From positions 1 to 50,571 of the forward strand of contig CAZAOA010000004.1 of the NCBI GenBank assembly GCA_964486765.1: a DNA stretch of 50,571 nt, in the 5' to 3' direction. Position 1 is the first letter of the stretch. Every line of letters starts with the position of its first letter. This document shows positions 1 to 33,494 of the stretch, in pieces. The notes under the pieces were generated by a model. That model saw only the letters and a program-made list of their open reading frames with translations. It had not been told where the DNA came from and did not search any database. The stretch is from an uncultured Candidatus Saccharibacteria bacterium (GTDB lineage Bacteria > Patescibacteriota > UBA1384 > XYA2-FULL-43-10). The position numbers were made by a program, and so were the translations under genes.

Positions 1-360
1 TACTATGCCGTTTGTTGTTAATGCTGTTTCGATGTCCTGCATTTTAGTTGTTTTGCTTACTATCAAAACGTCAATATCTCCTATCTCCTTTTTCATAGCA
101 TTGATATTTTTTAAATCAAAATGCTTATCTTCTAAGCGATTAAAAATCTTTCCTGGACGATAATGCATCAGAGCACCAACAACTTCATTATTTGCCTTTG
201 CAACTAGCACTTCACCCAAAGATAATGATTGCACGTACTCAATATTATAGTTGGCATCTTTAAAAATGTTATCGTGAAGTAGTTCCAATGCAGATTGAAA
301 ATCCTCTTCTGTGATTGGCTCTAATATTTTAACATTTGAATTTTTATTTTGTTTGGTCAT
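1..360 (-). CDS. GNAT-like N-acetyltransferase, N-terminal part (gene runs off window start)
   Basis: Open-ended, so absent from the ORF track. Manual translation from ATG 360-358 gives MTKQNKNSNVKILEPITEEDFQSALELLHDNIF...VLVAKANNEVVGALMHYRPGKIF with no stop down to position 1. The layout is GNAT-like. The ATG overlaps the rsmI stop. Confidence 0.4.
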   Translation of the reverse strand, partial: MTKQNKNSNVKILEPITEEDFQSALELLHDNIFKDANYNIEYVQSLSLGEVLVAKANNEVVGALMHYRPGKIFNRLEDKHFDLKNINAMKKEIGDIDVLIVSKTTKMQDIETALTTNGIV

Positions 361-1066
361 TGTTTCTTGTATCTTGTTTCTTTGCTATGAGGGTGATCTC
401 ACCTTTAAGCTTGTGATTTTTTAGATCAACAATTACATCATCAATTGTACCACCAAAGTATTCTTCAAACATCTTTGTCATCTCTCGAGCAACAAATACT
501 TCGACATCTTTACCGAAATATTTTTTAATGTCATTTAGAGTTTTTTCAAGCCGCAAAGCATTTTCATAGATAACTACTGGAGCATCAACATTCGATACTT
601 GATTTAGTTTTGTTTGACGTCCCTTCTTTTTGGGTAAAAATCCAACAAAGTAGAACTCTTTTCTAACAAGTCCTGAGACTGAAACAGCCGCCGAAACCGC
701 ACTTGGGCCAGCAATAGGGATAACATCAATATTTTTTTTTCTTGCGATTTTTACCAACTTTTGTCCTGGATCAGATATTGCAGGAGTTCCCGCATCCGAA
801 ACATAAGCAACATTTTTATTGTTTTTAATCTTATCCAATATTTTATCTATACTTTCATCCCTTGAGTGCTGGTGAAGCGCGATCATTTTATTTTTTATCC
901 CAAGAAGTGAGAGCAATTTCCCAGTGGATCTAGTATCTTCACATGCAACAAAATCGACACTCTTAAGTGTCTCAATTGCACGCTTCGAAATATCGCCCAT
1001 ATTGCCAATGGGAGTAGCGACTACATATAATTTTCCTGGTTCAGACTTATTCATAATTCGATTCAT
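344..1066 (-). CDS. rsmI: 16S rRNA (cytidine1402-2'-O)-methyltransferase RsmI
   Basis: LYVVATPIGNMGDISKRAIETLKSVDFVACEDTR and tetrapyrrole-methylase-like fold motifs. The true start may be the internal MNKSEPG. Confidence 0.9.
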   Translation of the reverse strand: MNRIMNKSEPGKLYVVATPIGNMGDISKRAIETLKSVDFVACEDTRSTGKLLSLLGIKNKMIALHQHSRDESIDKILDKIKNNKNVAYVSDAGTPAISDPGQKLVKIARKKNIDVIPIAGPSAVSAAVSVSGLVRKEFYFVGFLPKKKGRQTKLNQVSNVDAPVVIYENALRLEKTLNDIKKYFGKDVEVFVAREMTKMFEEYFGGTIDDVIVDLKNHKLKGEITLIAKKQDTRNNDQTK

Positions 1067-1117
1067 ACTAACATAAAACCAGACATTTAGCCAGTCTGGA
1101 TGTATAACATTTCACAT

Positions 1118-1855
1118 TTAGCTCTTTGCGCCTCTCCACGCCAATTCGAATATAGTCCTTTGAGTTTTAGCTACCTCATTTGATTCAATTAGCACTCCAA
1201 ACGGCTCGGGCTTGTATGTAATCATAATTATTTTATTTGCATAGATGTTGATCTCGTTCTCTAACGGAAACAACTCTTCATCTATTATTCTCGACTCTCT
1301 AAGTTCGCTCTTGTTTCGCTTCAAATGTTTTGAAACCTCAACCGAAGAATTATATAGCCCTTTTATTTTTACTCCCTTCTTTACCCGCCTCTTTACGTAA
1401 TTTTTTGAATAGGTCGGTATAAAATTCATGGTCTCTTTTGTCACATATGCCAAGATTTCGTCGTCTTTTTCCAAAGTGTCCAGTGTGTCTTCATACAATC
1501 TCTTTATCCCTTCTTCGCCCTCAAAGTAAGAAACCGTTGGCTTCTTGTCATTGGTGTTGTAGATTGAAAGCAGATAAGGTAGATCTCCACGAAAGCTAGA
1601 TTTTTGTTCCTCGATCCGATCCAAGATTTTCTTTGGATTGTCAGCTACAAAGTAACGCTTTCCATTCTCAATAGTTTCAGCTACAAACCCTTCGTCTCTT
1701 AATCTATACAAAATGTCATACGTTGTTGGTCTTTTAATTTTTGATTTATAGGCAATTTGGTTTGCGGTAGCTTTTTCTAGCTGCAAAAGAGCAAAATAGA
1801 TACTTTGTTCGTTAATATTTAGACCCAATTTTTGGAGTGATTTAAGTATTTTCAT
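1118..1855 (-). CDS. TrmB-family HTH transcriptional regulator
   Basis: N-terminal winged helix (LGLNINEQSIYFALLQLEKATANQIAYKSKIKRPTTYDILYRLRDEGFV) followed by a TrmB-like C-terminal domain. Confidence 0.7.
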   Translation of the reverse strand: MKILKSLQKLGLNINEQSIYFALLQLEKATANQIAYKSKIKRPTTYDILYRLRDEGFVAETIENGKRYFVADNPKKILDRIEEQKSSFRGDLPYLLSIYNTNDKKPTVSYFEGEEGIKRLYEDTLDTLEKDDEILAYVTKETMNFIPTYSKNYVKRRVKKGVKIKGLYNSSVEVSKHLKRNKSELRESRIIDEELFPLENEINIYANKIIMITYKPEPFGVLIESNEVAKTQRTIFELAWRGAKS

Positions 1856-1950
1856 AATGTGTTATTAGTAGTCGGTTTTAGTCGACTTACTACATTATAC
1901 ACTATATCGTTCGTATTTGTCAATATGTTTATTTAGTAAGTCATTATGTA

Positions 1951-1979
1951 TTGACTAATTCGAATATTTGTGAGATAAT
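1951..1979 (+). promoter_or_regulatory. sigma70-type promoter of island A (TTGACT-17nt-GATAAT)
   Basis: TTGACT at 1951-1956, exact 17-nt spacer, GATAAT at 1974-1979. AAGGAG at 2023-2028 lies 9 nt before ATG 2038. Confidence 0.5.
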
Positions 1980-2037
1980 TCACTGTTTGGCAACCCCAAA
2001 CGTACGTTAACAACTCAACCACAAGGAGACTGCTCAA

Positions 2038-2682
2038 ATGAGCATCGCACTGCCAAGTCGCATACAAGTCCACATGTACATCACATGGACGATAACCGCC
2101 GTAGTCCTCCACTCCATCTGCCTCTGGATCATCGGCCACTGGACACCGCTCATCGGCACTGGCAAGATGCTATGGTTCGATGCCAACAAGATGCTATGGT
2201 TCTTGCCAGTATTGTTCCCTATCTCTCGATGGTGGGACCTGGTGCTCTACCCGGTCATATTGCTTCCGGTATTGGTATTTCACCAAGGTCAGAGAAACTG
2301 GGGCCTGATCATCGGAGGAATCGCTGTAATGATGATCGCCATGGTTCCCGTTCTGAAATACATACTCTGTGGGATTCTGCTTGTGGTTAATCTATTCTCG
2401 ACCATCATATCTCATTGCTCGCATGAAGCGCGTGAAGGTGAAGTACTTGAAGTAACCGCAGTGCTTCTAGTATTTGCCGCGCTAGAGGCCAACGTTGCGT
2501 TCGGCGCTTCAATGACAATCGGACTTGTAGCGGTCCTTGGCGCCGTTTACATCACCGGCCTCCTGCTTCGTTACCTTGTGTTCGCGTTTCAGTGGCTTCT
2601 ATACAGCGCCTTTCCTCTGGTTGCGGCAGCAAGAACCGCCATTGTTGAGTCGGTAAAATGGTGGTTCTTCGATGGCGAATAA
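2038..2682 (+). CDS. Orphan polytopic membrane protein (high-GC island A)
   Basis: 214-aa ORF with strong RBS, several Trp/Leu/Val-rich hydrophobic spans and GC-rich codon choice unlike the flanks. No family recognised. Contains a 24-nt tandem duplication (KMLWFDAN/KMLWFLPV). Confidence 0.55.
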   Translation: MSIALPSRIQVHMYITWTITAVVLHSICLWIIGHWTPLIGTGKMLWFDANKMLWFLPVLFPISRWWDLVLYPVILLPVLVFHQGQRNWGLIIGGIAVMMIAMVPVLKYILCGILLVVNLFSTIISHCSHEAREGEVLEVTAVLLVFAALEANVAFGASMTIGLVAVLGAVYITGLLLRYLVFAFQWLLYSAFPLVAAARTAIVESVKWWFFDGE

Positions 2683-2708
2683 CCTCCCAACCAACCCAAA
2701 CGAGTCCC
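2658..2708 (+). repeat. Direct repeat copy 1 (pairs with 3691-3740)
   Basis: ATGGTGGTTCTTCGATGGCGAATAACCTCCCAACCAACCCAAACGAGTCCC. About 43 of 51 positions match copy 2. Encodes the ...WWFFDGE* end of ORF 2038-2682. Confidence 0.8.
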
Positions 2709-2948
2709 AGTTCCCCGAAGAGCTCGACATCCGCTGTACATTCCTAGAAATAAAGAGGCAGTAATATGGAAGATATGGATCGACAAGCCCAACTTGCAGA
2801 CCGGTTTCGGGGAGAGTTAGTGAACATATATCTTCAGAACTTGCTTCTTACTGAGAAATTGGTAGGGAGCAGAACTGAGGGTAAAACCTCGATCGTTAAA
2901 ACTAATGAGCCCCGACATGAGGCAAAAAGACACAGGAGACTTACCACC

Positions 2949-3476
2949 ATGCGTAACCTGATGATTGCTGTACTGATGCTGTCGGTGTCCGTCGTTGTTG
3001 CTGACGAAGTATCGCTTGGCTACTTTGGTGAGACTGGGTCGTACGATGGCGCATACATGAGCGCGTCGGTAGAGCAGTTCAATGTCTATGTAGAGCACGC
3101 AGGTGAGTGTAATTACACCCTCGCGATGCTCGATGCCGAGGTCGACGAAGGCCTCCGGGTGGGTATGCGTTTCGATTCACCCAGTATTTGGCGGCCGTAC
3201 GTGAAGAAGTCGATAGCGCTGGGTGACGGTTGGGTGGTCGGGCGCTGGTCGGTCGGTGGTTTGGGAGGCGTGAAGCAGCGCTTTGACATCTTCGCAGGCT
3301 ATCCGATCAACGATTGGTTGGCCGTCGAGGGCTGGGAGCGCTACCAGTCGGGATCGGCGCCAGCCCATAGTTGGGGACCGAAGGTATCGTACGGAGACTT
3401 CAGTCTCTGGTACGGCAAGAATTTCGGTGTTGGAGATGATGCTGTTATGGCAAACTACCAGGCATTTGCCTGGTGA
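2949..3476 (+). CDS. Orphan secreted beta-strand-rich protein (high-GC island A)
   Basis: Internal ATG 2949 follows AGGAG and begins a signal-peptide-like MRNLMIAVLMLSVSVVVADE. It has an alternating hydrophobic pattern and a C-terminal ...YQAFAW. The ORF-track start 2766 is probably upstream read-through. Confidence 0.5.
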   Translation: MRNLMIAVLMLSVSVVVADEVSLGYFGETGSYDGAYMSASVEQFNVYVEHAGECNYTLAMLDAEVDEGLRVGMRFDSPSIWRPYVKKSIALGDGWVVGRWSVGGLGGVKQRFDIFAGYPINDWLAVEGWERYQSGSAPAHSWGPKVSYGDFSLWYGKNFGVGDDAVMANYQAFAW

Positions 3477-3690
3477 GAAGGGGGAACTGAATTGGGCGCT
3501 TGGATAAAATGGATACTCTTACAGGGTCCAAGGCTCATTGTGCTGCCTGCCAAGACGGTCTGGATGTGCGAGTAATCCAAGGATAGTGGAATGCCCCTGG
3601 GTCGGATTACAGCGGTGAGGGATTCATCTGTATTATGGGTCTGACGAAGATACCTTCCAACCCCAAAATCACAACCGGAAGCGCCTTTAT

Positions 3691-3740
3691 ATGGTGGTTC
3701 TTCGATGGTGAATGACACCCCACGAACCCAAACGAGTCCC
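3691..3740 (+). repeat. Direct repeat copy 2 (pairs with 2658-2708)
   Basis: ATGGTGGTTCTTCGATGGTGAATGACACCCCACGAACCCAAACGAGTCCC. Closes a 26-codon ORF (3635-3715) that also ends WWFFDGE*. Confidence 0.8.
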
Positions 3741-3755
3741 CCTAAGGGGGACTCG
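3733..3755. terminator. 10-bp GC hairpin, likely bidirectional terminator (island A / Nramp gene)
   Basis: CGAGTCCCCC-TAA-GGGGGACTCG is a perfect 10-bp stem. On the minus strand it is followed by TTTGGGTT, about 25 nt after the Nramp stop. Confidence 0.45.
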
Positions 3756-3779
3756 TAGTCATTTAGATCAAATAAATAT

Positions 3780-5285
3780 TTAGAAAAATACTTCAAGTGC
3801 TAAAGTTACTATCACCGCTGCCGCCATTAAAAATACTGTTAACCAACCAAAAACCTTTACCCAAGTTGGATGAGTCTCCGCACCCATGATATTTTTGTCG
3901 TCTCCAACTTTCATTATTATATAGAGAAGTGGAACTGCGATTATACCGTTTATAAAAGCTGAATAGTAAAGTGCTTTGATCGGATCAATCCCGAAAAGAT
4001 TGAAAAGTAGTCCAAATAAAATTGAAAATGCTATCACCGCATAGAACGGTTTAGCCTTACTTGGTTTCTTATTCATCCCCTCTTTCCACTTCATAACCTC
4101 GGAGAGGGCATAGGCTCCAGACCCCGCCAAGATTGGTACGGCAAGCAGTCCAGTGCCAATTATTCCTAGAGCAAAGAGCAAATAAGCTTTATCCCCCGCA
4201 AGCGGTCGCAGAGCTTCTGCGGCTTGTTCGGCTGAATCGATAGAGTGGATTCCATTTTGAAAAAGTACTGTTGCTGTCGTTAAAATAATAAAGAAAAAGA
4301 CTAAATTGGCCAGTATCATCCCTGTTCTAACATCTGTTCGCATTCTAGCAATCCTCTGCTTTATCGGAGAAACCTTTCTGGACTCTTCTTTTTCAAGGTG
4401 CTCCTCCTCTACTTCTTCGGATGTTTGCCAGAAGAATAGATAAGGTGTGATGGTTGTACCCAGAATCGCCACCATCGCAAAAAGATAGTTTGAATTTAAG
4501 TGAATTTCAGGGACTATAGCTTCCATAGCCACAAAGCCCCAGTCCGGTTTGATCATTATCCCAGTTATCACATATGCAAAAACTGACAAAGTCAGCCATT
4601 TCAAGATCTTTACATAAGTTTTATAGGGAACGTAGATTTCAATTATGATGATGATTACTGCAAAAATTATAGCTGCCAGAACGAAATTGATATCTACTAA
4701 TAGCTGTAAGGAAGCGGCCATTGCGCCCAAGTCAGCGCCGATGTTTATGACATTGGCAATGATCAGAAGCATAACAGCGCTGGTGACCCAGCCCTTTTTG
4801 TATTTTTTGAGCATTACTCCGGCTAAACCCTTTGAAGTCACAACTCCTATTCGAGCACACACTTCTTGAACGGCAATCATAAGTGGCAGAATCCAAGCTG
4901 CCATCCAAATCAGCCCAAAGCCGTATTGAGCGCCAACAGAAGAGTAAGTTGCTATTCCACTTGGGTCGTCATCAGAAGCACCCGTAACCAGTCCGGGACC
5001 CAAAGTCTTGAAAAAAAACTTTGCTTTATTGTAAGGGTTGTTAAAAAATTCTTTTGCCTTATTTAGCTCTTCTTGTGTAATTTGAATCGTTCCATCTGCA
5101 GTTCTGTGACCCTTAACCATCCCCCATAAAACCATCTTTTTTGCCATCACCAAAGAGATCCCCAGTTCTCGTCGAAGATCGGACAACGAAATATGTCCTC
5201 CCGCTTTCTTTAGATCTTCTAACTCTCTGCCTGCTTCTTCTAACTTTTTCTCAGATTTTGTAGTTTCTGACACAAAGTCCCCCAC
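3780..5285 (-). CDS. Nramp/MntH-family divalent metal transporter with N-terminal HTH-like extension
   Basis: GPGLVTGASDDDPSGIATYSSVGAQYGFGLIW motif and about 11 hydrophobic spans. The N-terminal ~70 aa (ISLSDLRRELGISLVMAKKMVLWGMVKGHRTADGTIQITQEEL) resemble an excisionase/MerR-type HTH. GTG start overlaps the rsmA 3' end. Confidence 0.8.
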   Translation of the reverse strand: MGDFVSETTKSEKKLEEAGRELEDLKKAGGHISLSDLRRELGISLVMAKKMVLWGMVKGHRTADGTIQITQEELNKAKEFFNNPYNKAKFFFKTLGPGLVTGASDDDPSGIATYSSVGAQYGFGLIWMAAWILPLMIAVQEVCARIGVVTSKGLAGVMLKKYKKGWVTSAVMLLIIANVINIGADLGAMAASLQLLVDINFVLAAIIFAVIIIIIEIYVPYKTYVKILKWLTLSVFAYVITGIMIKPDWGFVAMEAIVPEIHLNSNYLFAMVAILGTTITPYLFFWQTSEEVEEEHLEKEESRKVSPIKQRIARMRTDVRTGMILANLVFFFIILTTATVLFQNGIHSIDSAEQAAEALRPLAGDKAYLLFALGIIGTGLLAVPILAGSGAYALSEVMKWKEGMNKKPSKAKPFYAVIAFSILFGLLFNLFGIDPIKALYYSAFINGIIAVPLLYIIMKVGDDKNIMGAETHPTWVKVFGWLTVFLMAAAVIVTLALEVFF

Positions 5286-6163
5286 TCTAGAATTGATAGC
5301 TCTTGCGCTCTTACATTTGCATTAAGCTTTGACTTTTCTATTATACCTGCAATTTCTTCTTTAGAGAATTCTGTCCCCGAAGTTAGATTATTGAGCAAAG
5401 TTTTCCGCCTTGATGCAAACCCAGTTTTAACAACTTTGAAAAATTCTTTTTCGTCGCATCCCTGTATACTAAATTCTTTATTCTTCCGCCCTTTGGGCGA
5501 GACCTCGCCACTTTGGCGGGTAATACTTGCGATTCGAAGAATCGCGCTATCAACATCAGGTGCTGGAAAAAACGATCCGCTTTTCACTATCTTAATGATC
5601 TCTGGCTCTCCATATGCTTGAACCGATACGGCTAGAAGTGACATCTGCCCTGCCTGCCCTGAGCTCGTCGAACGGGGTTTGGCACAGATTCGCTCTGCTA
5701 CTTCTTTTTGAGTCATCATCACAATCAGCTTTGGACGATGTTCGCTCTCCAAAAAGTGCCTAAGTATTTTAGATGTAATGTAATACGGAATATTGGCAAT
5801 AAGCTTGTAGCTGTTAGCTGTTAGCTTCTTAGGTTCGATATCAAGAATATCTTGATTTATAATTTGAATATTTGAATTTGTTTGATTATTGTCTCTTGTA
5901 TCTTGTTTCTTTAGAAGTTTTGCAAGTTTCTCATCCAACTCTACTGCTATCACTTCTTTGCAATATTTTGAAAGCTCAAATGTAAGTGTTCCGAGTCCTG
6001 GACCGACTTCAACAATGGTATCATCTTTGCTTAAATTGGCGGTTTCGATAATCGTGTCCAATACATCTCGATCAATTAAAAAATTCTGCCCCAAAGACTT
6101 CTTTGTATAAAGCCCGTTGCTTTTTAGAAAATGTATTAATTCCGACTTATTTGTTAAATCCAT
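5240..6163 (-). CDS. rsmA: 16S rRNA (adenine1518/1519-N6)-dimethyltransferase RsmA/KsgA
   Basis: KKSLGQNFLIDRDVLDTII...IVEVGPGLGTLTFEL and NIPYYITS motifs. Confidence 0.9.
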   Translation of the reverse strand: MDLTNKSELIHFLKSNGLYTKKSLGQNFLIDRDVLDTIIETANLSKDDTIVEVGPGLGTLTFELSKYCKEVIAVELDEKLAKLLKKQDTRDNNQTNSNIQIINQDILDIEPKKLTANSYKLIANIPYYITSKILRHFLESEHRPKLIVMMTQKEVAERICAKPRSTSSGQAGQMSLLAVSVQAYGEPEIIKIVKSGSFFPAPDVDSAILRIASITRQSGEVSPKGRKNKEFSIQGCDEKEFFKVVKTGFASRRKTLLNNLTSGTEFSKEEIAGIIEKSKLNANVRAQELSILEWGTLCQKLQNLRKS

Positions 6164-7328: not shown

Positions 7329-7493
7329 TATTAAATAGCAACAAGCCACATAATTATTCTATCACATTTCTTAAAATCTGTGTCTCCGCCAACTGGCGGA
7401 CTCTGTGAAAGATCAGCCTGTCCGCAATGTTTAGCTTATGCAGGCGGGTGTTGGAATTACCTTACAATCTTTAAATCTTATCAATAACAATTT

Positions 7494-7524
7494 TAAAAAA
7501 GCCCCCCCCGCAAGCGGAGGGAGG
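7494..7524 (-). terminator. Rho-independent terminator of island B gene
   Basis: Minus strand reads CCCTCCGC-TT-GCGGGGGG followed by CTTTTTT. Confidence 0.6.
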
Positions 7525-7568
7525 TCGGACGAAGTATTAGAATCCAAGACACGATAGGATCCGAGCGA

Positions 7569-8156
7569 CTAGTTGCGACGGAACACCCAGTGGCGTCCGT
7601 ATGTCATGTCGAGAAGGTCACCGCCGTAGCTGCTCAGCCACAGACCTCCAAGGGTAGGGCTACACCTATGATCGACGCCGAAGATTTGGGGGCGGCCATC
7701 GAATCTCGCGAGCGGCTCCATGACGATCAATAGCTTATCATCGGGCGGTTGTTTGAGGTAGTGACGGCGGATCTCTGGACCGTCTGATGCCAGACAGGGC
7801 TCCCAGCCAAGCTCAATTCCGGCTTCGTACGCTTGAGTCCAGGAGCAACCCAGCGACGGCGACGGGGAGCCGAGTTCCTCGTTAGAGGCCATGACAAAGC
7901 CAATGTCCTCCTTCGTCTGAGGGATACTGTCTGCGAAGGTGGGCTGGCTTATCATCTCGCTGGCCCATCTGTCGATATGGCTGATGGGTTTGATCTGACT
8001 CAAGGCTTGGCGAAAATCCGCCTCGGTTTTGAGTGTCCCGACCCGCACTGTCAGGAACGGTGAGCGTTCGATGAGGGCGCTCCGACCTGGCACCACTAGC
8101 ATCAGATATCTCCTTCTGCGTTTTATACGGGTTTCGCTCTCCCGAATTTCACTCAT
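7569..8156 (-). CDS. Orphan 195-aa protein (high-GC island B)
   Basis: Long ORF in a GC-rich block with its own promoter and terminator. ATG at 8156 follows the TTG of the ORF track. No family recognised and no clear SD. Confidence 0.5.
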   Translation of the reverse strand: MSEIRESETRIKRRRRYLMLVVPGRSALIERSPFLTVRVGTLKTEADFRQALSQIKPISHIDRWASEMISQPTFADSIPQTKEDIGFVMASNEELGSPSPSLGCSWTQAYEAGIELGWEPCLASDGPEIRRHYLKQPPDDKLLIVMEPLARFDGRPQIFGVDHRCSPTLGGLWLSSYGGDLLDMTYGRHWVFRRN

Positions 8157-8277
8157 CAAACGAGTGTAACCCGTAGGCTTAGCTATCTATCTAAAGAGAT
8201 CCTTCATTTTTATTCAGGATGACATTCATATCAGATAAACAATTAAGCCAAAAGGTGGTATTTGTAACTACAATAAT

Positions 8278-8393: not shown

Positions 8394-10376
8394 TCAAATT
8401 TTATCTATCAAATGCTCGGGTATATGTTCTATAAAGCGTGAGATTGGATTTGCCTGAAAGCGGCCATACAAATTTCGCTCGTAAGTATTTAATAAGTACA
8501 GATTCTTCTTTGCTCTAGTGATTCCAACATAACAAAGCCTCCTCTCCTCCTCCATCTGGTGTTGGTCATCGAGCGATCTAGAGTGAGGAAAGATCCCTTC
8601 CTCCATCCCAGTAATAAATACTGTGTCGAACTCCAAGCCCTTTGCCGAATGCAAAGTCATCAAAGTCAAAACCTTGTCGTCTCCCCCAACTTTGTCAGTA
8701 TCTTGGATAAGCGCCACTTTTTCAAGAAAAGCTTCGAGAGCTGCACCAGCTTCAGAAGCTTCAGAAACTTGAAATTGATTCTCAATTTCACTAGCTACAG
8801 TCATTAGCTCCTCTATGTTCTCCCAACGCCCTTCTCCTTCAGCAGAACCATCAAGCACCCATTTTTTGTATCCAACCTTCACCGCAACTTGCATAATCAG
8901 ATCATCTAGCCGAATATCTTCGGACTGTTGTTTCAGCTCACGCAGTATTTTGTAAAAATCCTTAACTTTTGGTGGCAGTAACTCATATTCTTCACTTGAT
9001 ACTGTATACTTGATACTTGATACTTTCTGCAATGTCTTTTCACCAATCCCCCTTGGAGGAGCTGCGATTATGCGTGCCATCGACTCCTTGTCGGCTGGAT
9101 TCACCATCAACCTTAAGTATGCGATTATGTCCTTAATCTCTTTTCGCTGATAAAACTGAACTCCACCCACAATCTTATATGGGATATCGAAACGAATGCA
9201 GGTTTCCTCTATAGCACGGGATTGAGCGTTGGTTCTATATAGTACCGCATAGTTATTCAAATCCCCATCTTTGCAAAGTGAACGAAGCTCAAGAGCTATA
9301 AACTCTCCTTCATCTTTTTCGTTCAATGCTTGATAAAGTGTAATTGGACGACCCGGTGCACCCTCTGTCCAAAGAGCCTTATCTGTTTTGTTTTTATTGA
9401 ATTTTATAACTTCGTTTGCCGCCTCTAAAATAGTTTGAGTTGAGCGATAGTTCTGCTCAAGTTTTATCACTTTAGCGCCGGGGTAGTGGCGCTCAAAGTT
9501 CAATATGTTTTTGAAGTTTGCTCCTCGCCAACCATAGATCGCCTGATAATCGTCGCCCACCACCATTATGTTTTTGTGTTTCGAAGCCAACAGTTTCACC
9601 CAGATGTATTGCGCCTGATTTGTGTCCTGATACTCATCAATCAAAATGTATTTGAAAGTCTCTTGGTATTTTTCTAAGATTTTAGGATTCTCTTTAAAAA
9701 GCCGAACGCATTGCATGATCAGATCGTCAAAATCAAGTGCATTGGCCTCTATTAAGTAGTCCTGATAGAGTTTGTAAATCTTGGCTGAAACTTCTGTAAT
9801 CGGCGAGTCAACGTATTTTGCATACTCTTTTGTATCCATCAGTTCATTTTTCGCCCCAGAGATAAAATAGCGGATCACTTCCGGTTTGAATTCTTTAGGG
9901 TCAATCTTTTGCTCTTTCATTAATCTTTTTACGACTGATTTGGAGTCAGAATCATCATAGATCACAAAATTGCGTGAATACCCTAAAACTTCCGCTTCTC
10001 TTCGCAATATCCGAACACAAACGCTGTGAAATGTCCCAAGCCAGGGAAGTCTGATAGGTTGTAGGTTGTAGCTTTTTAGCTTATTAGGTTTTTGGTTATT
10101 TTCAGCCAGAGGCTGATCGTCCTTTGGACGAGAATTTTGTTTGACATTAGTTAGCAATTTGCTTACTCTCCCCCCCATCTCACCCGCTGCCTTATTTGTA
10201 AATGTTACAGCAAGAACATTAAACGGTGAGACTTTCTTTTCCGATATTAGGTAAGCGATTCGGTGAGTCAGCGCTTTCGTTTTGCCACTCCCCGCTCCGG
10301 CGAGTACAAGAACAGGACCGTCAACAGTAGTTACGGCCTCTTTTTGAAACTGGTTTAATCCTTCTAGCATGTTCAT
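8394..10376 (-). CDS. pcrA: ATP-dependent DNA helicase PcrA/UvrD
   Basis: LNQFQKEAV...VLAGAGSGKTKALTHRIAYLI, TFTNKAAGEM, DEYQDTN, YRS, TLHSAKGLEF and VGITRAK motifs. True start is MNMLEGL at 10376. The 119 upstream codons of the track ORF are antisense read-through of island C. Confidence 0.9.
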   Translation of the reverse strand: MNMLEGLNQFQKEAVTTVDGPVLVLAGAGSGKTKALTHRIAYLISEKKVSPFNVLAVTFTNKAAGEMGGRVSKLLTNVKQNSRPKDDQPLAENNQKPNKLKSYNLQPIRLPWLGTFHSVCVRILRREAEVLGYSRNFVIYDDSDSKSVVKRLMKEQKIDPKEFKPEVIRYFISGAKNELMDTKEYAKYVDSPITEVSAKIYKLYQDYLIEANALDFDDLIMQCVRLFKENPKILEKYQETFKYILIDEYQDTNQAQYIWVKLLASKHKNIMVVGDDYQAIYGWRGANFKNILNFERHYPGAKVIKLEQNYRSTQTILEAANEVIKFNKNKTDKALWTEGAPGRPITLYQALNEKDEGEFIALELRSLCKDGDLNNYAVLYRTNAQSRAIEETCIRFDIPYKIVGGVQFYQRKEIKDIIAYLRLMVNPADKESMARIIAAPPRGIGEKTLQKVSSIKYTVSSEEYELLPPKVKDFYKILRELKQQSEDIRLDDLIMQVAVKVGYKKWVLDGSAEGEGRWENIEELMTVASEIENQFQVSEASEAGAALEAFLEKVALIQDTDKVGGDDKVLTLMTLHSAKGLEFDTVFITGMEEGIFPHSRSLDDQHQMEEERRLCYVGITRAKKNLYLLNTYERNLYGRFQANPISRFIEHIPEHLIDKI

Positions 10377-10410
10377 ATTACTGAAACAGTTTACCAAGAA
10401 AACATACCTT

Positions 10411-10448
10411 AGCCAAACATTGACACAATGGCTCTTTTTTGATAGAGT
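10411..10448 (+). promoter_or_regulatory. Cassette 1 promoter/hairpin module
   Basis: AGCCA-N13-TGGCT hairpin whose loop holds TTGACA (10420-10425), then a 17-nt spacer with T-run and TAGAGT (10443-10448). AAGGGAGG at 10475-10482. Confidence 0.5.
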
Positions 10449-10491
10449 TCTGGTGACAGAATACAGAAACCCACAAGGGAGGATGCTGGAC

Positions 10492-11028
10492 ATGAAAGTC
10501 ATCCGGAAAGTATATCCGTTCGTCCCGCTGGTCGTTGCACTGGCGCTTGTAGCCACTTTCCTCTGCCATCGGTTCAAGACCAATGGCGAACTCGAAGACG
10601 CTCGGATCGCCCGTATGAATGCTGAGCTGTCACGGGCAGAAGAATCATTCACCGTCCCAAAAGGTACGCTTCTGGCATCTACTGACGGCGAGAAGTGTCG
10701 AGTCGAAGTCTGGAGTACAGAAGCTATCCCCAACCCCTACAAGGTTCCGTATGCCGATAGTTACTCGCTCGATGGTGTAAGGGTTGTCATCTGTCCAAAA
10801 CAACCCGATGATCCAATGATCCGACGGAAGATCGAAGATGGCGTCGTTTACGATTACCAGCGATCAGGGGCCATAGAACGGCTCATAGACGATGAGCCCA
10901 TTCTCATTCCCGACATATTCACCCTGACTTCGGGTGACTCAGAAATCCAATGGGCGTTCATGCTCGCCATCCCCGACCAGAGTAAGTTTGAGTGGCGAGA
11001 AGAGCCGGCACGAGTGGCAAAGCTCTGA
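10492..11028 (+). CDS. Orphan N-terminally membrane-anchored protein (island C cassette 1)
   Basis: ATG 10492 lies 9 nt after GGAGG. Begins MKVIRKVYPFVPLVVALALVATFLCHRF followed by a soluble domain. GC-rich codons. No family recognised. Confidence 0.55.
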   Translation: MKVIRKVYPFVPLVVALALVATFLCHRFKTNGELEDARIARMNAELSRAEESFTVPKGTLLASTDGEKCRVEVWSTEAIPNPYKVPYADSYSLDGVRVVICPKQPDDPMIRRKIEDGVVYDYQRSGAIERLIDDEPILIPDIFTLTSGDSEIQWAFMLAIPDQSKFEWREEPARVAKL

Positions 11029-11048
11029 TCGTCACCAACACCGCAAGG

Positions 11049-11069
11049 CCGCCCCATACATTGGGGCGG
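11049..11069 (+). terminator. Cassette 1 terminator hairpin
   Basis: CCGCCCCA-TACAT-TGGGGCGG is an 8-bp GC stem 20 nt after the stop. The U-tract is weak. Confidence 0.45.
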
Positions 11070-11133
11070 TCGAATCATTTCTAAAACATTATTTGACTAT
11101 TTAGACCTAGATATTTTTTCGACAATATTCCAC

Positions 11134-11172
11134 GAGCCAAACATTGACACAATGGCTCTTATTTGATAGTTT
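11134..11172 (+). promoter_or_regulatory. Cassette 2 promoter/hairpin module
   Basis: GAGCCA-N13-TGGCTC hairpin, TTGACA 11144-11149, 17-nt spacer, TAGTTT 11167-11172. GGAGG at 11202-11206. Confidence 0.5.
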
Positions 11173-11212
11173 GAATAGGACGAAAATCTGCGACCACACA
11201 CGGAGGCATTCC

Positions 11213-11743
11213 ATGCATCGCAAAGGGTATACGCTGATTGAACTTCTGGTCGTGATCGTGCTCATCGTTTTATTGATAGCAATCGCTATGCCTTGTTATC
11301 AAAAGATAAGCCAGGTAAGCCGAAAAGCCGAAGCGGTCGACACAATCTTCCCACTTAAGGCCGGTGAGATCGCACATATAGCATCGTTGCTTGATGACGA
11401 AGTCATCGTTGTGTATCGGTATGAGAGTACAATCGAGTCACTCCGTGAATACAACGAACTCGTCGATCAAGGAACTGCAGGCCCTCTAGTGGCGCGTGTC
11501 ATAAGCCAACTTCCGATCGCTGGCTCTCCGCCAAACCTATACGTACTGGGAAGTGATGGACAGTCTCTGACGCTAACGCCAAACCCTCCAACCTCGATTC
11601 ATCTGCCCTGCACTTTCGAAGGGCATGAATTCACGAAAGAGATTGATGTGAAGATGAATCCGAAAGTTACGTACGTCGATCAGTCAAAAGCTCTTGCAAA
11701 GAGCGAGAGCTCCACCCGAACCGACCCTGACGCTACACGGTAG
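11213..11743 (+). CDS. Prepilin-type (class III signal peptide) protein, divergent body, C-terminal TRTDPD tail (cassette 2)
   Basis: MHRKG/YTLIELLVVIVLIVLLIAIAMP is a canonical N-methylation/cleavage motif with Glu+5. ATG 11213 lies 6 nt after GGAGG. The track start 11144 is the TTG of the -35 box. Confidence 0.7.
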   Translation: MHRKGYTLIELLVVIVLIVLLIAIAMPCYQKISQVSRKAEAVDTIFPLKAGEIAHIASLLDDEVIVVYRYESTIESLREYNELVDQGTAGPLVARVISQLPIAGSPPNLYVLGSDGQSLTLTPNPPTSIHLPCTFEGHEFTKEIDVKMNPKVTYVDQSKALAKSESSTRTDPDATR

Positions 11744-11787
11744 TTGTCAGGGGCTGTACAAATATTATTTCATTACATATAACAAAA

Positions 11788-11812
11788 AACCGCCATTATA
11801 TGGTGGTTTTTT
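11788..11812 (+). terminator. Cassette 2 rho-independent terminator
   Basis: AACCGCC-ATTATAT-GGTGGTT followed by TTTT. Confidence 0.65.
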
Positions 11813-11841
11813 GAAGTGTTAACTTTCGAAATGGAATTGAA

Positions 11842-11880
11842 GAGCCAAACACTGACACAATGGCTCTTTTTTGATAGTTT
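11842..11880 (+). promoter_or_regulatory. Cassette 3 promoter/hairpin module
   Basis: GAGCCA-N13-TGGCTC hairpin, CTGACA 11852-11857, 17-nt spacer, TAGTTT 11875-11880. GGAGG at 11909-11913. Confidence 0.45.
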
Positions 11881-11919
11881 GAATGGGACGAAAATCTGCG
11901 ACACACATGGAGGCATGCA

Positions 11920-12492
11920 ATGAGTCGCAAAGGGTTTAAGCTGATTGAAGTTCTGGTTGTGATCGCCGTCATCGCCGTCTTGGCTGCAATCCTTTTTCCT
12001 CAATTCGCAAAGGCAAAACGCAAAGCTGAATTGAAGAATGCCATGAGGAATGCCACAAAGGAGTCAATTCTTCCGCTAGAGCGCGGCGTGGTTGCCGCTT
12101 CGCACTCCTTGATGGATGGTTCCGTCAAGATCGAGTATCGGTATGACCGAACCATCACATCTCTGCAGAATTATGATGATCCTGAAACCGTGGTCATCCA
12201 CGAAACAGCCGTACCACTAGTGGTGTATGTCGACAGTCAGCTTCCGATCATTGAATCACACACGACGCCATCTAACCTTCGTCTGAGAATGGCCGACAAC
12301 CGATTCGTAGACATAGACATTGAGCCACTATCGATATCGGCGATCGATTTCCCATACATCCACAATGGCGAGGAACACACAAACAAGATCCCGGTCGAGG
12401 TTGCCCGAACCGAATACCTTGATCTGTCTGGATTAACAGACACAGAAGTCGATATCGCCCGACGTACCCGAACCGACCCTGACAATTCGTAG
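11920..12492 (+). CDS. Prepilin-type (class III signal peptide) protein, paralog of cassette 2 product (cassette 3)
   Basis: MSRKG/FKLIEVLVVIAVIAVLAAILFPQFAKAKRKA. Shares YRY..TI.SL..Y and SQLPI motifs and the RTRTDPD tail with the cassette 2 product. Confidence 0.7.
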   Translation: MSRKGFKLIEVLVVIAVIAVLAAILFPQFAKAKRKAELKNAMRNATKESILPLERGVVAASHSLMDGSVKIEYRYDRTITSLQNYDDPETVVIHETAVPLVVYVDSQLPIIESHTTPSNLRLRMADNRFVDIDIEPLSISAIDFPYIHNGEEHTNKIPVEVARTEYLDLSGLTDTEVDIARRTRTDPDNS

Positions 12493-12536
12493 TTGTCAGG
12501 GGCTGTACAAACATAATTACATTACATATAACAAAA

Positions 12537-12561
12537 AACCACCAGTATATGGTGGTTTTTT
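12537..12561 (+). terminator. Cassette 3 rho-independent terminator
   Basis: AACCACC-AGTATAT-GGTGGTT followed by TTTT. Confidence 0.65.
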
Positions 12562-12589
12562 GAATGGGCGAAAGATAGAGGTAAGCTTA
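12556..12589 (+). repeat. 34-nt direct repeat copy 1 (TTTTTGAATGGGCGAAAGATAGAGGTAAGCTTA)
   Basis: Exact repeat of 12694-12727 apart from its first base. Immediately followed by the GC hairpin 12589-12635, which is absent from copy 2. Confidence 0.85.
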
Positions 12590-16757: not shown

Positions 16758-16844
16758 GTAGATAGTTTACTAGATTGTAGTTTTTTAAGTTTCGAATCTT
16801 TATCGTTTGGGTTTGTTTAGTATTTAGATGTTGATCAATTGTTC

Positions 16845-16988
16845 GACACCTGCCCGTCCTGCGCTCGAGTTTGTCTCGAAACCTATCCGCCGTGGCTCGA
16901 CCACGGCGAGACAGGCGGGTTCGCAGACGAATCGTCGCTACGGAGGGCGCGACAGACTATCGATAAAATTAAGGTGTCGCGGAGGGGA
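16845..16988 (+). promoter_or_regulatory. GC-rich conserved 5' leader element, copy P (upstream of pilB)
   Basis: GC-rich block inside an AT-rich leader. It shares GTCTCGAAACCTAT...GGGTTCGCAG.CGAA.CGTCGCT..GG.GGGC.CGACA.ACTAT.GA.AA..TTAAGGTGTCG.GGAGGGG.ATG with 30862-30960 (minus). It carries an extra 8-bp hairpin CGCCGTGG-CTCGA-CCACGGCG at 16888-16908. Confidence 0.5.
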
Positions 16989-19586: not shown

Positions 19587-19640
19587 TCAAACTTCAACTT
19601 TCAATGTGAAAATGGAAATTGGAAATTGGAAAATAATATT

Positions 19641-33409: not shown

Positions 33410-33427
33410 AATATTGTTTTAGTGGTC

Positions 33428-33452: not shown

Positions 33453-33494
33453 TGTCGGATCATTCTAGCCCAGGAAGCGTATGGCCATTGACGC

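What the first reader, a model, noticed from the sequence alone, without database searches (positions are those of the whole stretch)
1951..3755. High-GC island A: own promoter, orphan Trp-rich membrane protein, secreted beta-barrel-like protein, and a 50-nt direct repeat that duplicates a WWFFDGE* C-terminus
A GC-rich plus-strand block sits between two minus-strand AT-rich genes. TTGACT-17-GATAAT plus AAGGAG drive a 214-aa polytopic protein. A 175-aa protein follows, with a signal-peptide-like N-terminus (MRNLMIAVLMLSVSVVVA/DE), alternating beta-type hydrophobicity and a C-terminal aromatic ...YQAFAW. That is reminiscent of small outer-membrane barrels, which is odd for a genome that otherwise looks monoderm/CPR-like. 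A direct repeat (2658-2708 versus 3691-3740, about 43 of 51 identical) brackets the second gene. Copy 1 encodes ...KWWFFDGE* of the membrane protein. Copy 2 closes a 26-codon ORF (3635-3715, MGLTKIPSNPKITTGSAFIWWFFDGE*) with the same ending. This suggests either an insertion or duplication scar, or a conserved C-terminal peptide/3' module.
Basis: partly seen in the sequence, partly recalled or inferred. Interest (0 to 1): 0.7.

Follow-up and report, generated by a model that had tools for sequence, protein, structure and literature searches.

The report
Porin-like barrel gene in a CPR bacterium
A GC-rich two-gene block in an AT-rich, ultra-small (Patescibacteria/CPR) genome is the cargo of a regulator-plus-cargo module, and its second gene encodes an exported protein predicted to fold like an outer-membrane porin, which is unexpected because CPR bacteria are thought to have no outer membrane.

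Summary
Positions 1985-3756 are 46-56% GC against 39% for the window. A TTGACT-17-GATAAT promoter and an AAGGAG site precede a 214-aa orphan membrane protein (g1). A 175-aa exported protein (g2) follows. A 51-nt direct repeat (45/51 identical) brackets g2.

New results:
- g2 belongs to a rare, unannotated family of 166-195-aa proteins. All aligned members have a signal peptide, and 17 of 18 end in Phe or Trp. AlphaFold2 (pLDDT 89) predicts 12 strands, and Foldseek matches them best to 12-stranded membrane barrels (KdgM, TM 0.61-0.63).
- Every family member whose context I could read sits as a GC-rich transcription unit (GC3 0.59-0.80) in AT-rich DNA that is CPR-like wherever enough flank is held. 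Most lie divergent from a TrmB-like regulator, sometimes in arrays of up to five modules. The "flanking" trmB is therefore part of the module.
- Relatives have Nramp directly next to rsmI, so trmB plus the island is an insertion there.
- The repeat is a local scar. A barrel unit without its -35/operator and without half its terminator lies between g1's stop codon and g1's terminator hairpin. The WWFFDGE tail occurs nowhere else.

Function is inferred only. The likeliest is a regulated pore acting outside the cytoplasmic membrane.

The parts
1118..1855 (-). TrmB-like winged-helix regulator (245 aa, TrmBL2-like size). It is the regulator half of the module.
   Evidence: Pfam PF01978 E 5.4e-15. 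Best PDB sequence hits are TrmBL2 and TrmB, E about 7e-4. TrmB paralogues lie directly divergent from barrel or other GC-rich genes in L096, L097, L099, L104 and L105.
1856..2037 (.). AT-rich (27% GC) back-to-back promoter region. The trmB promoter is TTGACA-18-TATAAT (1923..1894, minus strand). The g1 promoter is TTGACT-17-GATAAT (1951-1979, plus strand). The inverted repeat 1884-1895/1931-1942 is a candidate operator. The g1 5'UTR and AAGGAG (2023-2028) follow.
   Evidence: Operator function is inferred, not tested.
2038..2682 (+). g1: 214-aa polytopic membrane protein, 5.1% Trp, orphan.
   Evidence: ORF. Hydropathy. GC1/2/3 of 0.55/0.38/0.60. No Pfam, NCBIfam, PHROG or PADLOC hit. Only self-hits among 5.8 billion proteins by word-indexed search. 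No tblastn hit in plasmids. Exhaustive HMMER was not run for g1.
2658..2708 (+). Repeat copy 1: the last 8 codons of g1 (WWFFDGE*) plus 26 nt of 3'UTR. It ends at ACGAGTCCC, which is the left arm of the terminator hairpin; the right arm is missing here.
2709..2848 (+). Filler of unknown origin. It contains the ATG at 2766 that opens the spurious 61-codon N-terminal extension of the g2 ORF.
   Evidence: No match in any related locus. Homologues do not have the extension.
2849..2948 (+). Promoter remnant and conserved 5'UTR of the barrel unit. A -10-like stretch (ACTGAGAAATTGGTA, 2850-2864) is followed by GCAGAACTGAGGGTAAAAC..., with AGGAG at 2934-2938. The -35 and the palindromic operator seen in L098, L099 and L105 are absent.
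   Evidence: No sigma-70-like promoter or plus-strand terminator was detected between g1 and g2.
2949..3476 (+). g2: 175-aa precursor. It has a Sec signal peptide (aa 1-18, VVA|DE) followed by a predicted 12-stranded transmembrane-type beta-barrel that ends in ...AFAW.
   Evidence: Family of about 13 cluster representatives. Alignment A4. AF2 pLDDT 89.4, pTM 0.79, 12 strands. Foldseek: KdgM 4fqe/4pr7 TM 0.61-0.63, designed 12-strand barrel 9fdg 0.62, then NanC, Tsx and intimin/invasin. Phage OMPs in BFVD. Strand faces alternate hydrophobic and polar.
3494..3509 (+). Truncated intrinsic terminator of the barrel unit. The left arm GGGCGCTTGG and the loop ATAAAA are kept. The right arm and T-tract, present in L098, L100 and L001, are missing.
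   Evidence: homology to L098 ends at 3509.
3510..3690 (+). Filler of unknown origin. It has stops in all three plus-strand frames and holds the 5' part of the 26-codon ORF 3635-3715.
3691..3740 (+). Repeat copy 2 (WWFFDGE* plus 3'UTR).
3732..3756 (.). Perfect 12-bp hairpin, ACGAGTCCCCCT-A-AGGGGGACTCGT. It is the presumed original g1 terminator and now ends the g1-g2 operon. It lies 24 nt from the Nramp stop codon, so it may also terminate Nramp.
   Evidence: z -3.46. Terminator function is inferred; it has no strong T-tract.

Best explanation
Island A is the cargo half of a two-part module. The other half is the AT-rich TrmB-like regulator gene (1118-1855), transcribed divergently from a back-to-back consensus promoter.

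Such TrmB-plus-GC-rich-cargo modules recur in Patescibacteria, singly or in arrays, at different places in related genomes. Here the whole 2.7-kb module lies between Nramp and rsmI, which are adjacent in relatives.

The cargo is a fused operon.
- g1 is an orphan polytopic membrane protein.
- g2 belongs to a rare, unannotated family of Sec-exported proteins. They are predicted to form 12-stranded, porin-like transmembrane beta-barrels with a charged lumen and a C-terminal aromatic residue.

The 51-nt direct repeat is a local scar of that fusion. A barrel transcription unit was cut inside its promoter spacer and inside its terminator loop. It was placed, with 140 and 180 nt of filler, between g1's stop-codon region and g1's terminator hairpin. 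This duplicated the last 24 coding nt plus 26 nt of 3'UTR. g2 thereby lost its own operator and -35 and its terminator. It is now presumably read through from the g1 promoter and ended by the old g1 hairpin.

Steps shown: the anatomy, the family, the predicted fold, the contexts, the composition and the synteny. Steps inferred: TrmB represses the cargo promoter; g1 and g2 are co-transcribed; the barrel acts as a pore in a membrane outside the cytoplasmic membrane (that of a host or partner, or an unrecognised outer layer).
For: Composition and gene models. GC rises at the transcription start and falls after the terminator. The promoter region is 27% GC, the g1 5'UTR 46%, the two CDSs 51% and 56%, and the 23 nt after the hairpin 17%.

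Family and fold: exhaustive HMMER found 17 hits, about 13 of them small full-length proteins. All 14 aligned members have signal peptides, and 17 of 18 sequences end in F or W. The AF2 model is confident only with the 14-sequence alignment (pLDDT 32.9 with 2 sequences, 89.4 with 14). Foldseek top hits are 12-stranded outer-membrane barrels. The invariant residues E49, R74, R82 and D113 lie on the polar face of their strands.

Context: the barrel gene is divergent from a TrmB gene in L096, L097, L099 (twice), L104 and L105 (twice). L105 has five TrmB/GC-rich modules in 10 kb. Barrel GC3 is 0.59-0.80 and other cargo 0.51-0.66, against 0.37-0.49 for the TrmB genes.

Changing location: L104 is syntenic with window 23.5-27.8 kb and L094 shares gene order with window 35-50 kb, yet both carry their barrel at sites that are empty in the window. 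The Nramp-rsmI gap is 25-105 bp in L005, L007 and L012.

Scar: homology to L098 spans exactly 2871-3509. L098, L099 and L105 carry a palindrome, GTCAAC-N7-GTTGAC at its core with arms of up to 11 bp, over the -35 upstream of the same 5'UTR; the window lacks it. The terminator right arm is present in L098, L100 and L001 but absent in the window. The copy 1 hairpin arm has no partner, while copy 2 has the full hairpin. No promoter or plus-strand terminator was detected between g1 and g2.
Against: - The fold is a prediction from only 14 sequences. No coordinates were inspected, so which strand face points outward is inferred from the hydrophobic/polar pattern only.
- No Pfam, NCBIfam or PDB sequence match ties g2 to any porin family.
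- CPR bacteria are regarded as monoderm and without porins (10.1101/2021.05.31.446380; PMC8871954), so there is no known assembly route (BAM) or target membrane.
- I could not scan the 694-kb genome for BamA or LPS genes.
- The mechanism that made a 51-nt duplication is not identified, and the two fillers have no known source.
- In the coding part of the repeat both differences are silent (GGC/GGT, TAA/TGA). This hints at constraint on copy 2 that a dead scar would not have.
- One barrel (L094) has no TrmB neighbour.
- TrmB control is untested.
Confidence: 0.6

Rival explanations
1. Classic one-off horizontal transfer. The island is a recent import from a GC-rich diderm bacterium. g2 is an ordinary outer-membrane protein stranded in a monoderm, with no role there, and trmB is just a neighbour.
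For: GC3 is 0.60-0.65 against 0.23-0.43 for housekeeping genes. The OMP-type fold and C-terminal aromatic residue are diderm hallmarks. The island is absent from the syntenic junction in relatives.
Against: No homologue was found in a GC-rich or diderm context. Pattern scans with two subgroup alignments found none in 185,579 species genomes or in IMG/VR, and tblastn with g2 found none in plasmids or phages. The contexts recovered have AT-rich flanks, and the longer ones (L094, L098/L100, L104, L105) carry CPR-like genes; in most of them a TrmB gene lies next to the barrel. The family keeps invariant lumen residues, signal peptides and a shared 5'UTR, which argues for function.
Confidence: 0.12
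2. The 51-nt repeats are attL/attR-type sites of a site-specific cassette (integron-like or a small integrative element). Such an element would have carried g2 into the 3' end of g1 while restoring the g1 C-terminus.
For: Direct repeats bracket a single gene. The repeat covers the 3' end of a gene, as with elements that rebuild their target. Both the g1 repeat and the g2 unit break inside hairpin loops.
Against: - No integrase or recombinase lies in the module or its flanks.
- The repeat occurs only twice in the window and nowhere else searched.
- Other barrel loci have no such repeat.
- The conserved barrel unit (2849-3509) does not abut the repeats; 140 and 180 nt of unrelated filler lie between.
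- By eye there is no attC-like GTTRRRY core (the repeat has GTTCTTC).
- The copies differ at 6 of 51 positions.
Confidence: 0.07
3. The repeat is a functional 3' module. This could be a conserved C-terminal peptide (WWFFDGE), with the 26-aa ORF 3635-3715 a real micro-protein, or a 3'UTR-derived small RNA ending in the hairpin.
For: Both substitutions in the 24 coding nt plus stop are silent. By simple counting, 9 of 72 possible single changes are silent, so two silent changes have a chance of about 0.016. The non-coding half has 3 substitutions and an indel. The hairpin is strong.
Against: The tail is found nowhere else. The 26-codon ORF has no Shine-Dalgarno at a working distance (GAGG ends about 15 nt before the ATG). 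Similarity stops abruptly 5' of the Trp codons. g1 itself has no homologues to show that the tail is conserved.
Confidence: 0.1
4. g2 is a secreted soluble beta-barrel (a lipid or small-molecule binder, or an enzyme), not a membrane pore. Alternatively, it is a TrmB-repressed self-killing pore that inserts back into the cell's own membrane during phage attack (abortive infection).
For: No outer membrane or BAM is expected in CPR (10.1101/2021.05.31.446380). Some soluble barrels appear lower in the Foldseek list (OssO/OlmO, Rv2717c, TM about 0.46). The architecture resembles regulator-gated defence operons: a tight palindromic operator over a consensus -35, variable orphan cargo and arrays.
Against: The best structural matches are all membrane barrels with 12 strands. 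One face of nearly every strand is hydrophobic or aromatic, and the other carries the charged and invariant residues. That is the membrane-barrel pattern, and a 12-strand barrel is too wide for a packed hydrophobic core. No PADLOC match for g1, g2 or nine of ten other cargo genes; the tenth is only a generic methyltransferase-domain match.
Confidence: 0.2

Closest known systems
KdgM/NanC family of 12-stranded outer-membrane porins (PDB 4fqe, 4pr7, 2wjr; Pfam PF06178)
   Same: Monomeric size class (about 155-aa mature g2 against 170-200-residue chains). Sec signal peptide. 12 antiparallel strands with short turns. Charged residues on the presumed lumen face. C-terminal aromatic residue. Best Foldseek TM-scores, 0.61-0.63.
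   Different: No detectable sequence relationship (9-16% identity in the structural alignments; no Pfam, NCBIfam or PDB profile hit). The host lineage is presumed monoderm. The genes are GC-rich islets next to TrmB regulators, not sugar-catabolic regulon members.
Phage- and island-borne small OMP genes (lambda Lom, phage 'outer membrane protein' morons)
   Same: A single-gene, self-contained transcription unit with its own promoter, leader and terminator. Atypical composition. Variable location between related genomes. A barrel fold matches phage OMPs in BFVD.
   Different: No phage genes nearby, and no homologue in 50,697 phage records or IMG/VR. It is paired with a dedicated regulator.
TrmB/TrmBL2 winged-helix regulators (PDB 5bqt, 3qph)
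   Same: N-terminal TrmB HTH (PF01978, E 5e-15). Length similar to TrmBL2 (245 against 262 aa). Aligns to residues 12-182 of TrmBL2.
   Different: Weak similarity (E about 7e-4). There is no match to the sugar-binding domain of true TrmB. It is bacterial (CPR), multi-paralogous, and each copy is paired with a GC-rich cargo unit.
Regulator-gated defence or accessory operons (for example BrxR/CapW-type wHTH regulators divergent from variable cargo) and integron-like cassette arrays
   Same: Repeated regulator-plus-variable-cargo units in arrays. Mostly orphan cargo. Strong promoter overlapped by a palindrome.
   Different: Different regulator family. No WYL domain, no integrase and no attC. One of ten other cargo genes matched a PADLOC model (a generic methyltransferase-domain hit to mad2). 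This is a resemblance of layout only.

Membership tests
Outer-membrane beta-barrel proteins (OMP fold class) | N-terminal cleavable Sec signal peptide | tested here: met
   MRN + 14 hydrophobic residues + VVA|DE. AF2 models residues 2-17 as a helix. An equivalent N-terminus with an A|D/Q site is present in all 14 aligned members. No dedicated signal-peptide predictor was available.
Outer-membrane beta-barrel proteins (OMP fold class) | Closed antiparallel barrel with an even strand number, and strands with alternating lipid-facing hydrophobic and lumen-facing polar residues | tested here: met
   AF2 predicts 12 strands at pLDDT 89.4 and pTM 0.79. Foldseek probability is 1.00 to KdgM, designed 12-strand barrels, NanC, Tsx and intimin. 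Alternation shown. This is a prediction only, and coordinates were not inspected.
Outer-membrane beta-barrel proteins (OMP fold class) | C-terminal aromatic residue (beta-signal) | tested here: met
   17 of 18 family sequences end in F or W; P0004 ends in R. The full beta-signal motif is only partly matched in g2 (...NYQAFAW).
Outer-membrane beta-barrel proteins (OMP fold class) | Resides in an outer membrane and is assembled by BAM (BamA/Omp85) in the same organism | not testable with these tools
   Only 50 kb plus about 8 kb of the 694-kb scaffold could be read. The type IV pilus cluster 16839-23426 has PilB, C and M, a weak PilN match and a PilO-like ORF but no secretin. The literature counts CPR as monoderm (10.1101/2021.05.31.446380; PMC8871954).
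KdgM/NanC porin family (Pfam PF06178) | Sequence match to the family profile | tested here: not met
   None of the 14 members hits any porin or OMP Pfam family at E <= 1. No NCBIfam hit. The profile search against PDB sequences gave nothing relevant. It is therefore not filed as a KdgM member; only the fold is shared.
TrmB family transcription regulators | TrmB-type winged-helix DNA-binding domain | tested here: met
   PF01978 at 55.4 bits against a 25.6-bit cut-off.
TrmB family transcription regulators | C-terminal sugar-binding effector domain (TrmB sensu stricto) | tested here: not met
   NCBIfam TrmB/TrmBL1 equivalogs score 30-35 bits against cut-offs of 600-650 bits. The 245-aa length is closer to TrmBL2.
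Integron gene cassette / attC | Imperfect inverted-repeat attC with R''/R' cores (GTTRRRY), an IntI integrase nearby, and the same site class after each cassette | tested here: not met
   No integrase in the gene tables. The repeat is direct, occurs only twice, and has no GTTRRRY core (read by eye). No attC model search was run.
Diversity-generating retroelement (VR/TR pair) | VR at the 3' end of a target gene and a TR that differs at adenines, with a reverse transcriptase nearby | tested here: not met
   The differences are C/T, A/G, T/A, A/C and C/G plus an indel, which is not adenine-specific. No RT lies in the module.
Integrative genomic island / mobile element | Atypical composition and absence from the syntenic site in relatives | tested here: met
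Integrative genomic island / mobile element | Own integrase or transposase and terminal repeats at the island borders | tested here: not met
   No such gene was found. The 51-nt repeat lies inside the island and brackets only g2. No convincing repeat lies at 1067-1117 against 3757-3779.

The most novel reading that the evidence does not exclude
Patescibacteria, presumed to have a single membrane, keep a pool of GC-rich, TrmB-gated cargo units that move between genomic sites. One recurrent cargo is a true porin-type 12-stranded membrane barrel that works outside the cell's own cytoplasmic membrane. It could be inserted into the outer membrane of the host or partner bacterium as a feeding or killing pore. 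Alternatively, it could reveal an unrecognised outer lipid layer in some CPR lineages. The GC-richness, which is confined to the transcribed unit, would mark a special evolutionary regime for these genes, such as recombination-driven GC-biased conversion or exchange through a shared pool.
Probability: 0.25. Interest if true: 0.85.

Novelty: new variant of a known kind. Interest (0 to 1): 0.66.

Why it matters
CPR/Patescibacteria make up a large share of bacterial diversity. They live attached to other cells, and they are taken to lack an outer membrane and porins.

A conserved, exported, porin-fold protein family in these genomes would give a concrete, testable candidate for how these epibionts breach or tap a partner's envelope. 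Alternatively, it would force a second look at their own envelope.

The paired TrmB-cargo layout, with GC-richness limited to the transcribed unit, is a simple genomic signature. It could be used to mine thousands of CPR genomes for further surface or interaction genes that currently look like unrelated orphans.

The direct repeat itself matters little. It records how one such unit was spliced into another operon.

Tried and rejected
1. Rfam at gathering score on the window and at E <= 1 on 1850-3850: only tRNAs and one chance snoRNA hit.
2. The 18-mer GCAGAACTGAGGGTAAAA in GTDB genomes: 10 hits in unrelated phyla. About 17 are expected by chance, so this was uninformative.
3. WWFFDGE-stop DNA pattern: 0 hits in GTDB genomes. 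The one IMG/VR hit is antisense inside a phage tail gene, so it is chance.
4. Barrel family in GTDB species genomes and in IMG/VR (pattern scans with alignments A5 and A6), and g2 by tblastn in PLSDB plasmids and INPHARED phages: nothing. The full alignment A4 was too diverse for the pattern scan.
5. AF2 with a 2-sequence alignment gave an unusable model (pLDDT 33).
6. Remnant of a g1 paralogue upstream of copy 2: all three frames of 3479-3720 carry stops and show no g1-like sequence, and there is no DNA similarity beyond the repeat.
7. The 61-codon N-terminal extension of g2 (from 2766): rejected because no homologue has it.
8. DGR and integron readings: rejected (see the membership tests).
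9. Structured 5'UTR: the fold is not better than shuffles (z -0.72).
10. Homology among the different GC-rich cargo genes (g1, orf196 and the L096/L099/L104/L105 cargo): none except among the barrels. Pfam and PADLOC on ten of them: only a methyltransferase.
11. High expression as the cause of high GC3: the ribosomal protein L19 gene has GC3 of 0.28.
12. P0002 (117 aa) is only an alternative gene call for the g1 C-terminal half.


Full report

Yes. GC is 0.50-0.57 in 2001-3500, against 0.394 for the window. The rise begins at the transcription start and ends at the hairpin. The promoter region 1856-1979 is 27% GC, the g1 5'UTR 46%, g1 51%, g2 56%, 3477-3756 is 52%, and the 23 nt before Nramp are 17%.

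The consensus scan finds TTGACT-17-GATAAT (with TG) at 1951-1979. On the other strand it finds a perfect TTGACA-18-TATAAT for trmB. AAGGAG lies 9 nt before the ATG at 2038.

The repeat 2658-2708 / 3691-3740 is 45/51 identical with one indel. Its edges are sharp: the flanks are 11/30 and 9/30 identical. Shuffles give 0 expected matches.

The island is identical in two other assemblies that hold it, so it is not an assembly artefact.

**2. Gene models**

g1 (2038-2682, 214 aa) is hydrophobic with several membrane-spanning stretches and 5.1% Trp.
- It has a coding-like GC1/2/3 pattern of 0.55/0.38/0.60.
- It has no Pfam, NCBIfam, PHROG or PADLOC match.
- The word-indexed search of 5.8 billion proteins returned only itself (P0002 is an alternative call of the same gene).
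- I had only one exhaustive HMMER job and spent it on g2, so "orphan" for g1 rests on the less sensitive search.

The g2 ORF opens at 2766. All homologues begin at the signal-peptide Met, so the real gene is 2949-3476 (175 aa), preceded by AGGAG.

**3. What g2 is**

Exhaustive HMMER with a two-sequence profile found 17 proteins among 1.84 billion cluster representatives. About 13 are full-length proteins of 166-195 aa.
- All 14 aligned members have an N-terminal signal peptide with an A|D/Q cleavage-type site.
- 17 of 18 sequences end in Phe or Trp.
- Y32, E49, R74, R82, D113, G143 and P144 are invariant.

None of the 14 members matches a related Pfam family, and the family profile hits no solved structure by sequence.

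AlphaFold2 failed with 2 sequences (pLDDT 33). With the 14-sequence alignment it gave pLDDT 89.4 and pTM 0.79: a signal helix followed by 12 beta-strands of 8-12 residues with short turns.

The best Foldseek matches in the PDB are:
- the 12-stranded porin KdgM (TM 0.61-0.63);
- a de novo 12-stranded transmembrane barrel (0.62);
- NanC, Tsx, and the intimin/invasin barrels;
- other porins.

Soluble barrels score lower. In BFVD it matches phage outer-membrane proteins.

Within the strands, one face is hydrophobic or aromatic and the other polar or charged. The invariant charged residues lie on the polar face. That is the pattern of a lipid-embedded barrel with a water-filled, functionally constrained lumen.

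These are predictions. The closed barrel and the orientation of the faces were not checked on coordinates.

**4. Where the family lives**

Every context I could recover has AT-rich flanks, and the longer ones (L094, L098/L100, L104, L105) carry CPR-like genes.
- The window's own relatives are Patescibacteria MAGs (Nramp 57-66% identical).
- L094 carries T4SS_pilin genes and shares gene order with window 35-50 kb. Both have NTP-transferase, HSP20, ComF, M16 peptidase, NDK, GT4 and DnaE.
- L104 is syntenic with window 23.5-27.8 kb at 36-65% protein identity.

In all cases the barrel gene is a GC-rich islet (GC 0.53-0.65, GC3 0.59-0.80) in DNA of 36-43% GC.

A TrmB-family gene lies immediately upstream on the opposite strand in L096, L097, L099 (two barrels), L104 and L105 (two barrels).
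- L105 has five consecutive TrmB(-)/GC-rich(+) modules beside dnaA.
- L099 has three such modules and L096 has two.

The other cargo genes are unrelated to each other. They are almost all without Pfam or PADLOC matches and are likewise GC-rich.

The window's trmB (1118-1855; PF01978; TrmBL2-like by length and PDB match) therefore belongs to the module. It is not a host flank.

**5. Is it an insertion?**

Yes. In moderately related genomes the order is G5-ksgA-Nramp-rsmI. The Nramp-rsmI gap is 25-105 bp in L005, L007 and L012, and holds other variable content elsewhere. The window has trmB, g1 and g2 (about 1067-3779) at that junction.

Conversely, L104 and L094 carry their barrel modules at sites that are empty in the window. 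The modules thus change place between related genomes.

There is no integrase or transposase, and no terminal repeat at the module borders.

No reservoir was found in 185,579 species genomes, IMG/VR, PLSDB or INPHARED.

**6. Anatomy of the repeat**

Comparison with intact barrel units defines what was moved.

In L098, L099 and L105 the unit reads, in order:
- a palindrome whose core is GTCAAC-N7-GTTGAC (arms up to 11 bp, ACGTTGTCAAC...GTTGACAACGT in L105), overlapping a TTGACA -35;
- a 17-nt spacer and a -10;
- a leader that begins at ...GCAGAACTGAGGGTAAAAC...;
- the CDS;
- a canonical terminator, GGGCGCTTGG-ATAAAA-CCAAGCGCCC-TTTT.

The window keeps the -10-like stretch, the leader, the CDS, and only the left arm and loop of the terminator. 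BLAST homology to L098 is exactly 2871-3509. The -35 and operator and the right arm of the terminator are gone.

This truncated unit is padded by 140 nt (2709-2848) and 180 nt (3510-3690) that match nothing. It sits between two copies of the last 24 coding nt plus 26 nt of 3'UTR of g1.

Copy 1 ends at ACGAGTCCC, the left arm of a hairpin whose right arm is found only after copy 2 (3732-3756; z -3.5). Removing one repeat copy and the intervening DNA would leave g1 followed directly by that hairpin.

No promoter or plus-strand terminator is detected between g1 and g2. I therefore read the repeat as an insertion-duplication scar that fused a promoter-less barrel unit into the g1 operon.

How a 51-nt duplication arose is not resolved. 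Candidates are single-crossover integration of a circular fragment carrying a diverged copy of the g1 end, or a replication or repair template switch.

One oddity remains. Both differences in the coding part are silent (Gly GGC/GGT; stop TAA/TGA), while the non-coding half has three substitutions and an indel. This could mean that copy 2 came from a functional orthologue, or that it is under some constraint.

The rival readings fail their defining features (see the membership tests):
- att site or integron cassette;
- DGR VR/TR pair;
- conserved peptide or 3' module.

The WWFFDGE-stop pattern is absent from GTDB genomes, and its single IMG/VR hit is antisense in a tail gene.

**7. How it most likely works (inferred)**

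The TrmB-like protein probably represses the back-to-back promoters through repeats in the 182-bp intergenic region. A candidate operator is the inverted repeat 1884-1895/1931-1942.

On release, a g1-g2 transcript would run from about 1985 to the hairpin at 3756. g1 would go to the cytoplasmic membrane. g2 would be exported by Sec and its signal peptide cleaved after VVA.

The literature counts CPR as monoderm and lacking porins (10.1101/2021.05.31.446380; PMC8871954). In the window, the pilus cluster lacks a secretin.

The barrel would therefore have one of three fates:
- it inserts into a foreign outer membrane, that of the host or partner of an epibiont;
- it sits in an unrecognised outer layer;
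- it re-inserts into the cell's own membrane as a regulated lethal pore.

I favour a pore acting outside the cytoplasmic membrane, but none of this is tested.

**8. The composition puzzle**

GC3 of 0.6-0.8 is confined to the transcribed cargo units. It is not explained by high expression, because the L19 gene has GC3 of 0.28. No GC-rich donor was identified.

The signal-peptide DNA of g2 is 90% identical over 59 nt to that of the L097 barrel. The alignable part of the two proteins is only 43% identical, and the L097 protein is 35% identical to g2 overall. This suggests mosaic recombination.

GC-biased gene conversion at recombination-prone genes, or exchange through a shared pool, are possible explanations. 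Both are offered as hypotheses only.

**9. Comparison with known systems, and verdict**

By fold, g2 works like a KdgM/NanC-type small porin. It fails the sequence test for that family and for every curated OMP family, so it is a new family with a known fold in an unexpected lineage.

The regulator is a TrmB-family member of the short, TrmBL2-like kind.

The module layout resembles regulator-gated accessory or defence operons and phage "moron" units. It shares no defining component with them.

I found no paper that links Patescibacteria with TrmB modules or porin-like barrels.

The finding is real and more interesting than a plain genomic island.

Noticed in passing
window 7401-8200 (ORF 7569-8159, minus strand): A second GC-rich islet (up to 60% GC). 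It holds a 196-aa orphan ORF with GC3 of 0.66 and no Pfam, NCBIfam, PHROG or PADLOC hit. It has no TrmB neighbour and no homologue in any fetched locus.
   Followed up: partly
window 7402-7458; L002 5152-5210; L003 1-36: An intergenic element of about 59 nt with an imperfect hairpin (…CCGCAATGTTTAGCTTATGCAGGCGGG…). It lies at the edge of islet B and recurs (93% identical) between TatD and EamA genes elsewhere in the same genome. It looks like a small dispersed repeat.
   Followed up: partly
window 10369-12564: A tandem set of GC-richer ORFs (GC3 0.52-0.55); two of the three carry an N_methyl pilin motif. They have repeated 5' regions (10410, 11134, 11842) and repeated terminators (11740, 12489). 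This indicates recent tandem duplication of whole transcription units.
   Followed up: partly
window 342-383 and 5871-5912: A 42-nt repeat (88% identical) lies inside coding sequence. It encodes KKQDTRNNDQTK at the C-terminus of rsmI and KKQDTRDNNQTN inside ksgA, as if a short insert had been shared by two unrelated genes.
   Followed up: no
window 16839-19586: One 915-aa ORF combines an HU-type DNA-binding domain (Bac_DNA_binding), MshEN and a PilB-type T2SSE ATPase. It is either an unusual fusion or two genes merged by the mechanical ORF call. The pilus cluster that follows (PilC and PilM by Pfam, a weak PilN match, and a PilO-like ORF by its homologue in L104, up to 23426) has no secretin.
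   Followed up: no
window 15-82: There are 16 mismatches to L002/L003 within about 70 nt, while the next 12.6 kb differ at only 2-4 positions. This is a sharp strain-level recombination edge at the window start.
   Followed up: partly
window 2163-2178 and 2187-2202: A perfect 16-nt direct repeat inside g1 encodes KMLWF twice (GKMLWFDANKMLWF).
   Followed up: no
window 2866-2935; L098 84-146; L105 about 11890-11915; L001 about 104-125: The leader motif GCAGAACTGAGGGTAAAAC (plus about 45 further nt shared with L098) is about 90% conserved between barrel genes whose proteins are only 50-61% identical. It is not significantly structured (z -0.72). Its role is unknown.
   Followed up: partly
L105 3055-12490; L099 72-6719; L096 777-4112: Arrays of two to five consecutive modules, each a TrmB gene (minus strand, AT-rich) facing GC-rich orphan cargo (plus strand). 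In L105 the array lies next to dnaA. The cargo includes two barrels, signal-peptide proteins, membrane proteins and a methyltransferase.
   Followed up: partly
window 33401-33700: A GC-rich (up to 55%) stretch begins with the strong hairpin GGGGCGGCTACTCCAGCCGCCCC, downstream of the L19 gene. It has no Rfam hit at gathering score and was not examined further.
   Followed up: no
L033 9446-10647 and L046 8412-8957: In two relatives the Nramp-rsmI gap also holds GC-richer DNA (0.50-0.52 against 0.43 for the locus) with small orphan ORFs. This junction may be a recurrent landing site for such islets.
   Followed up: no
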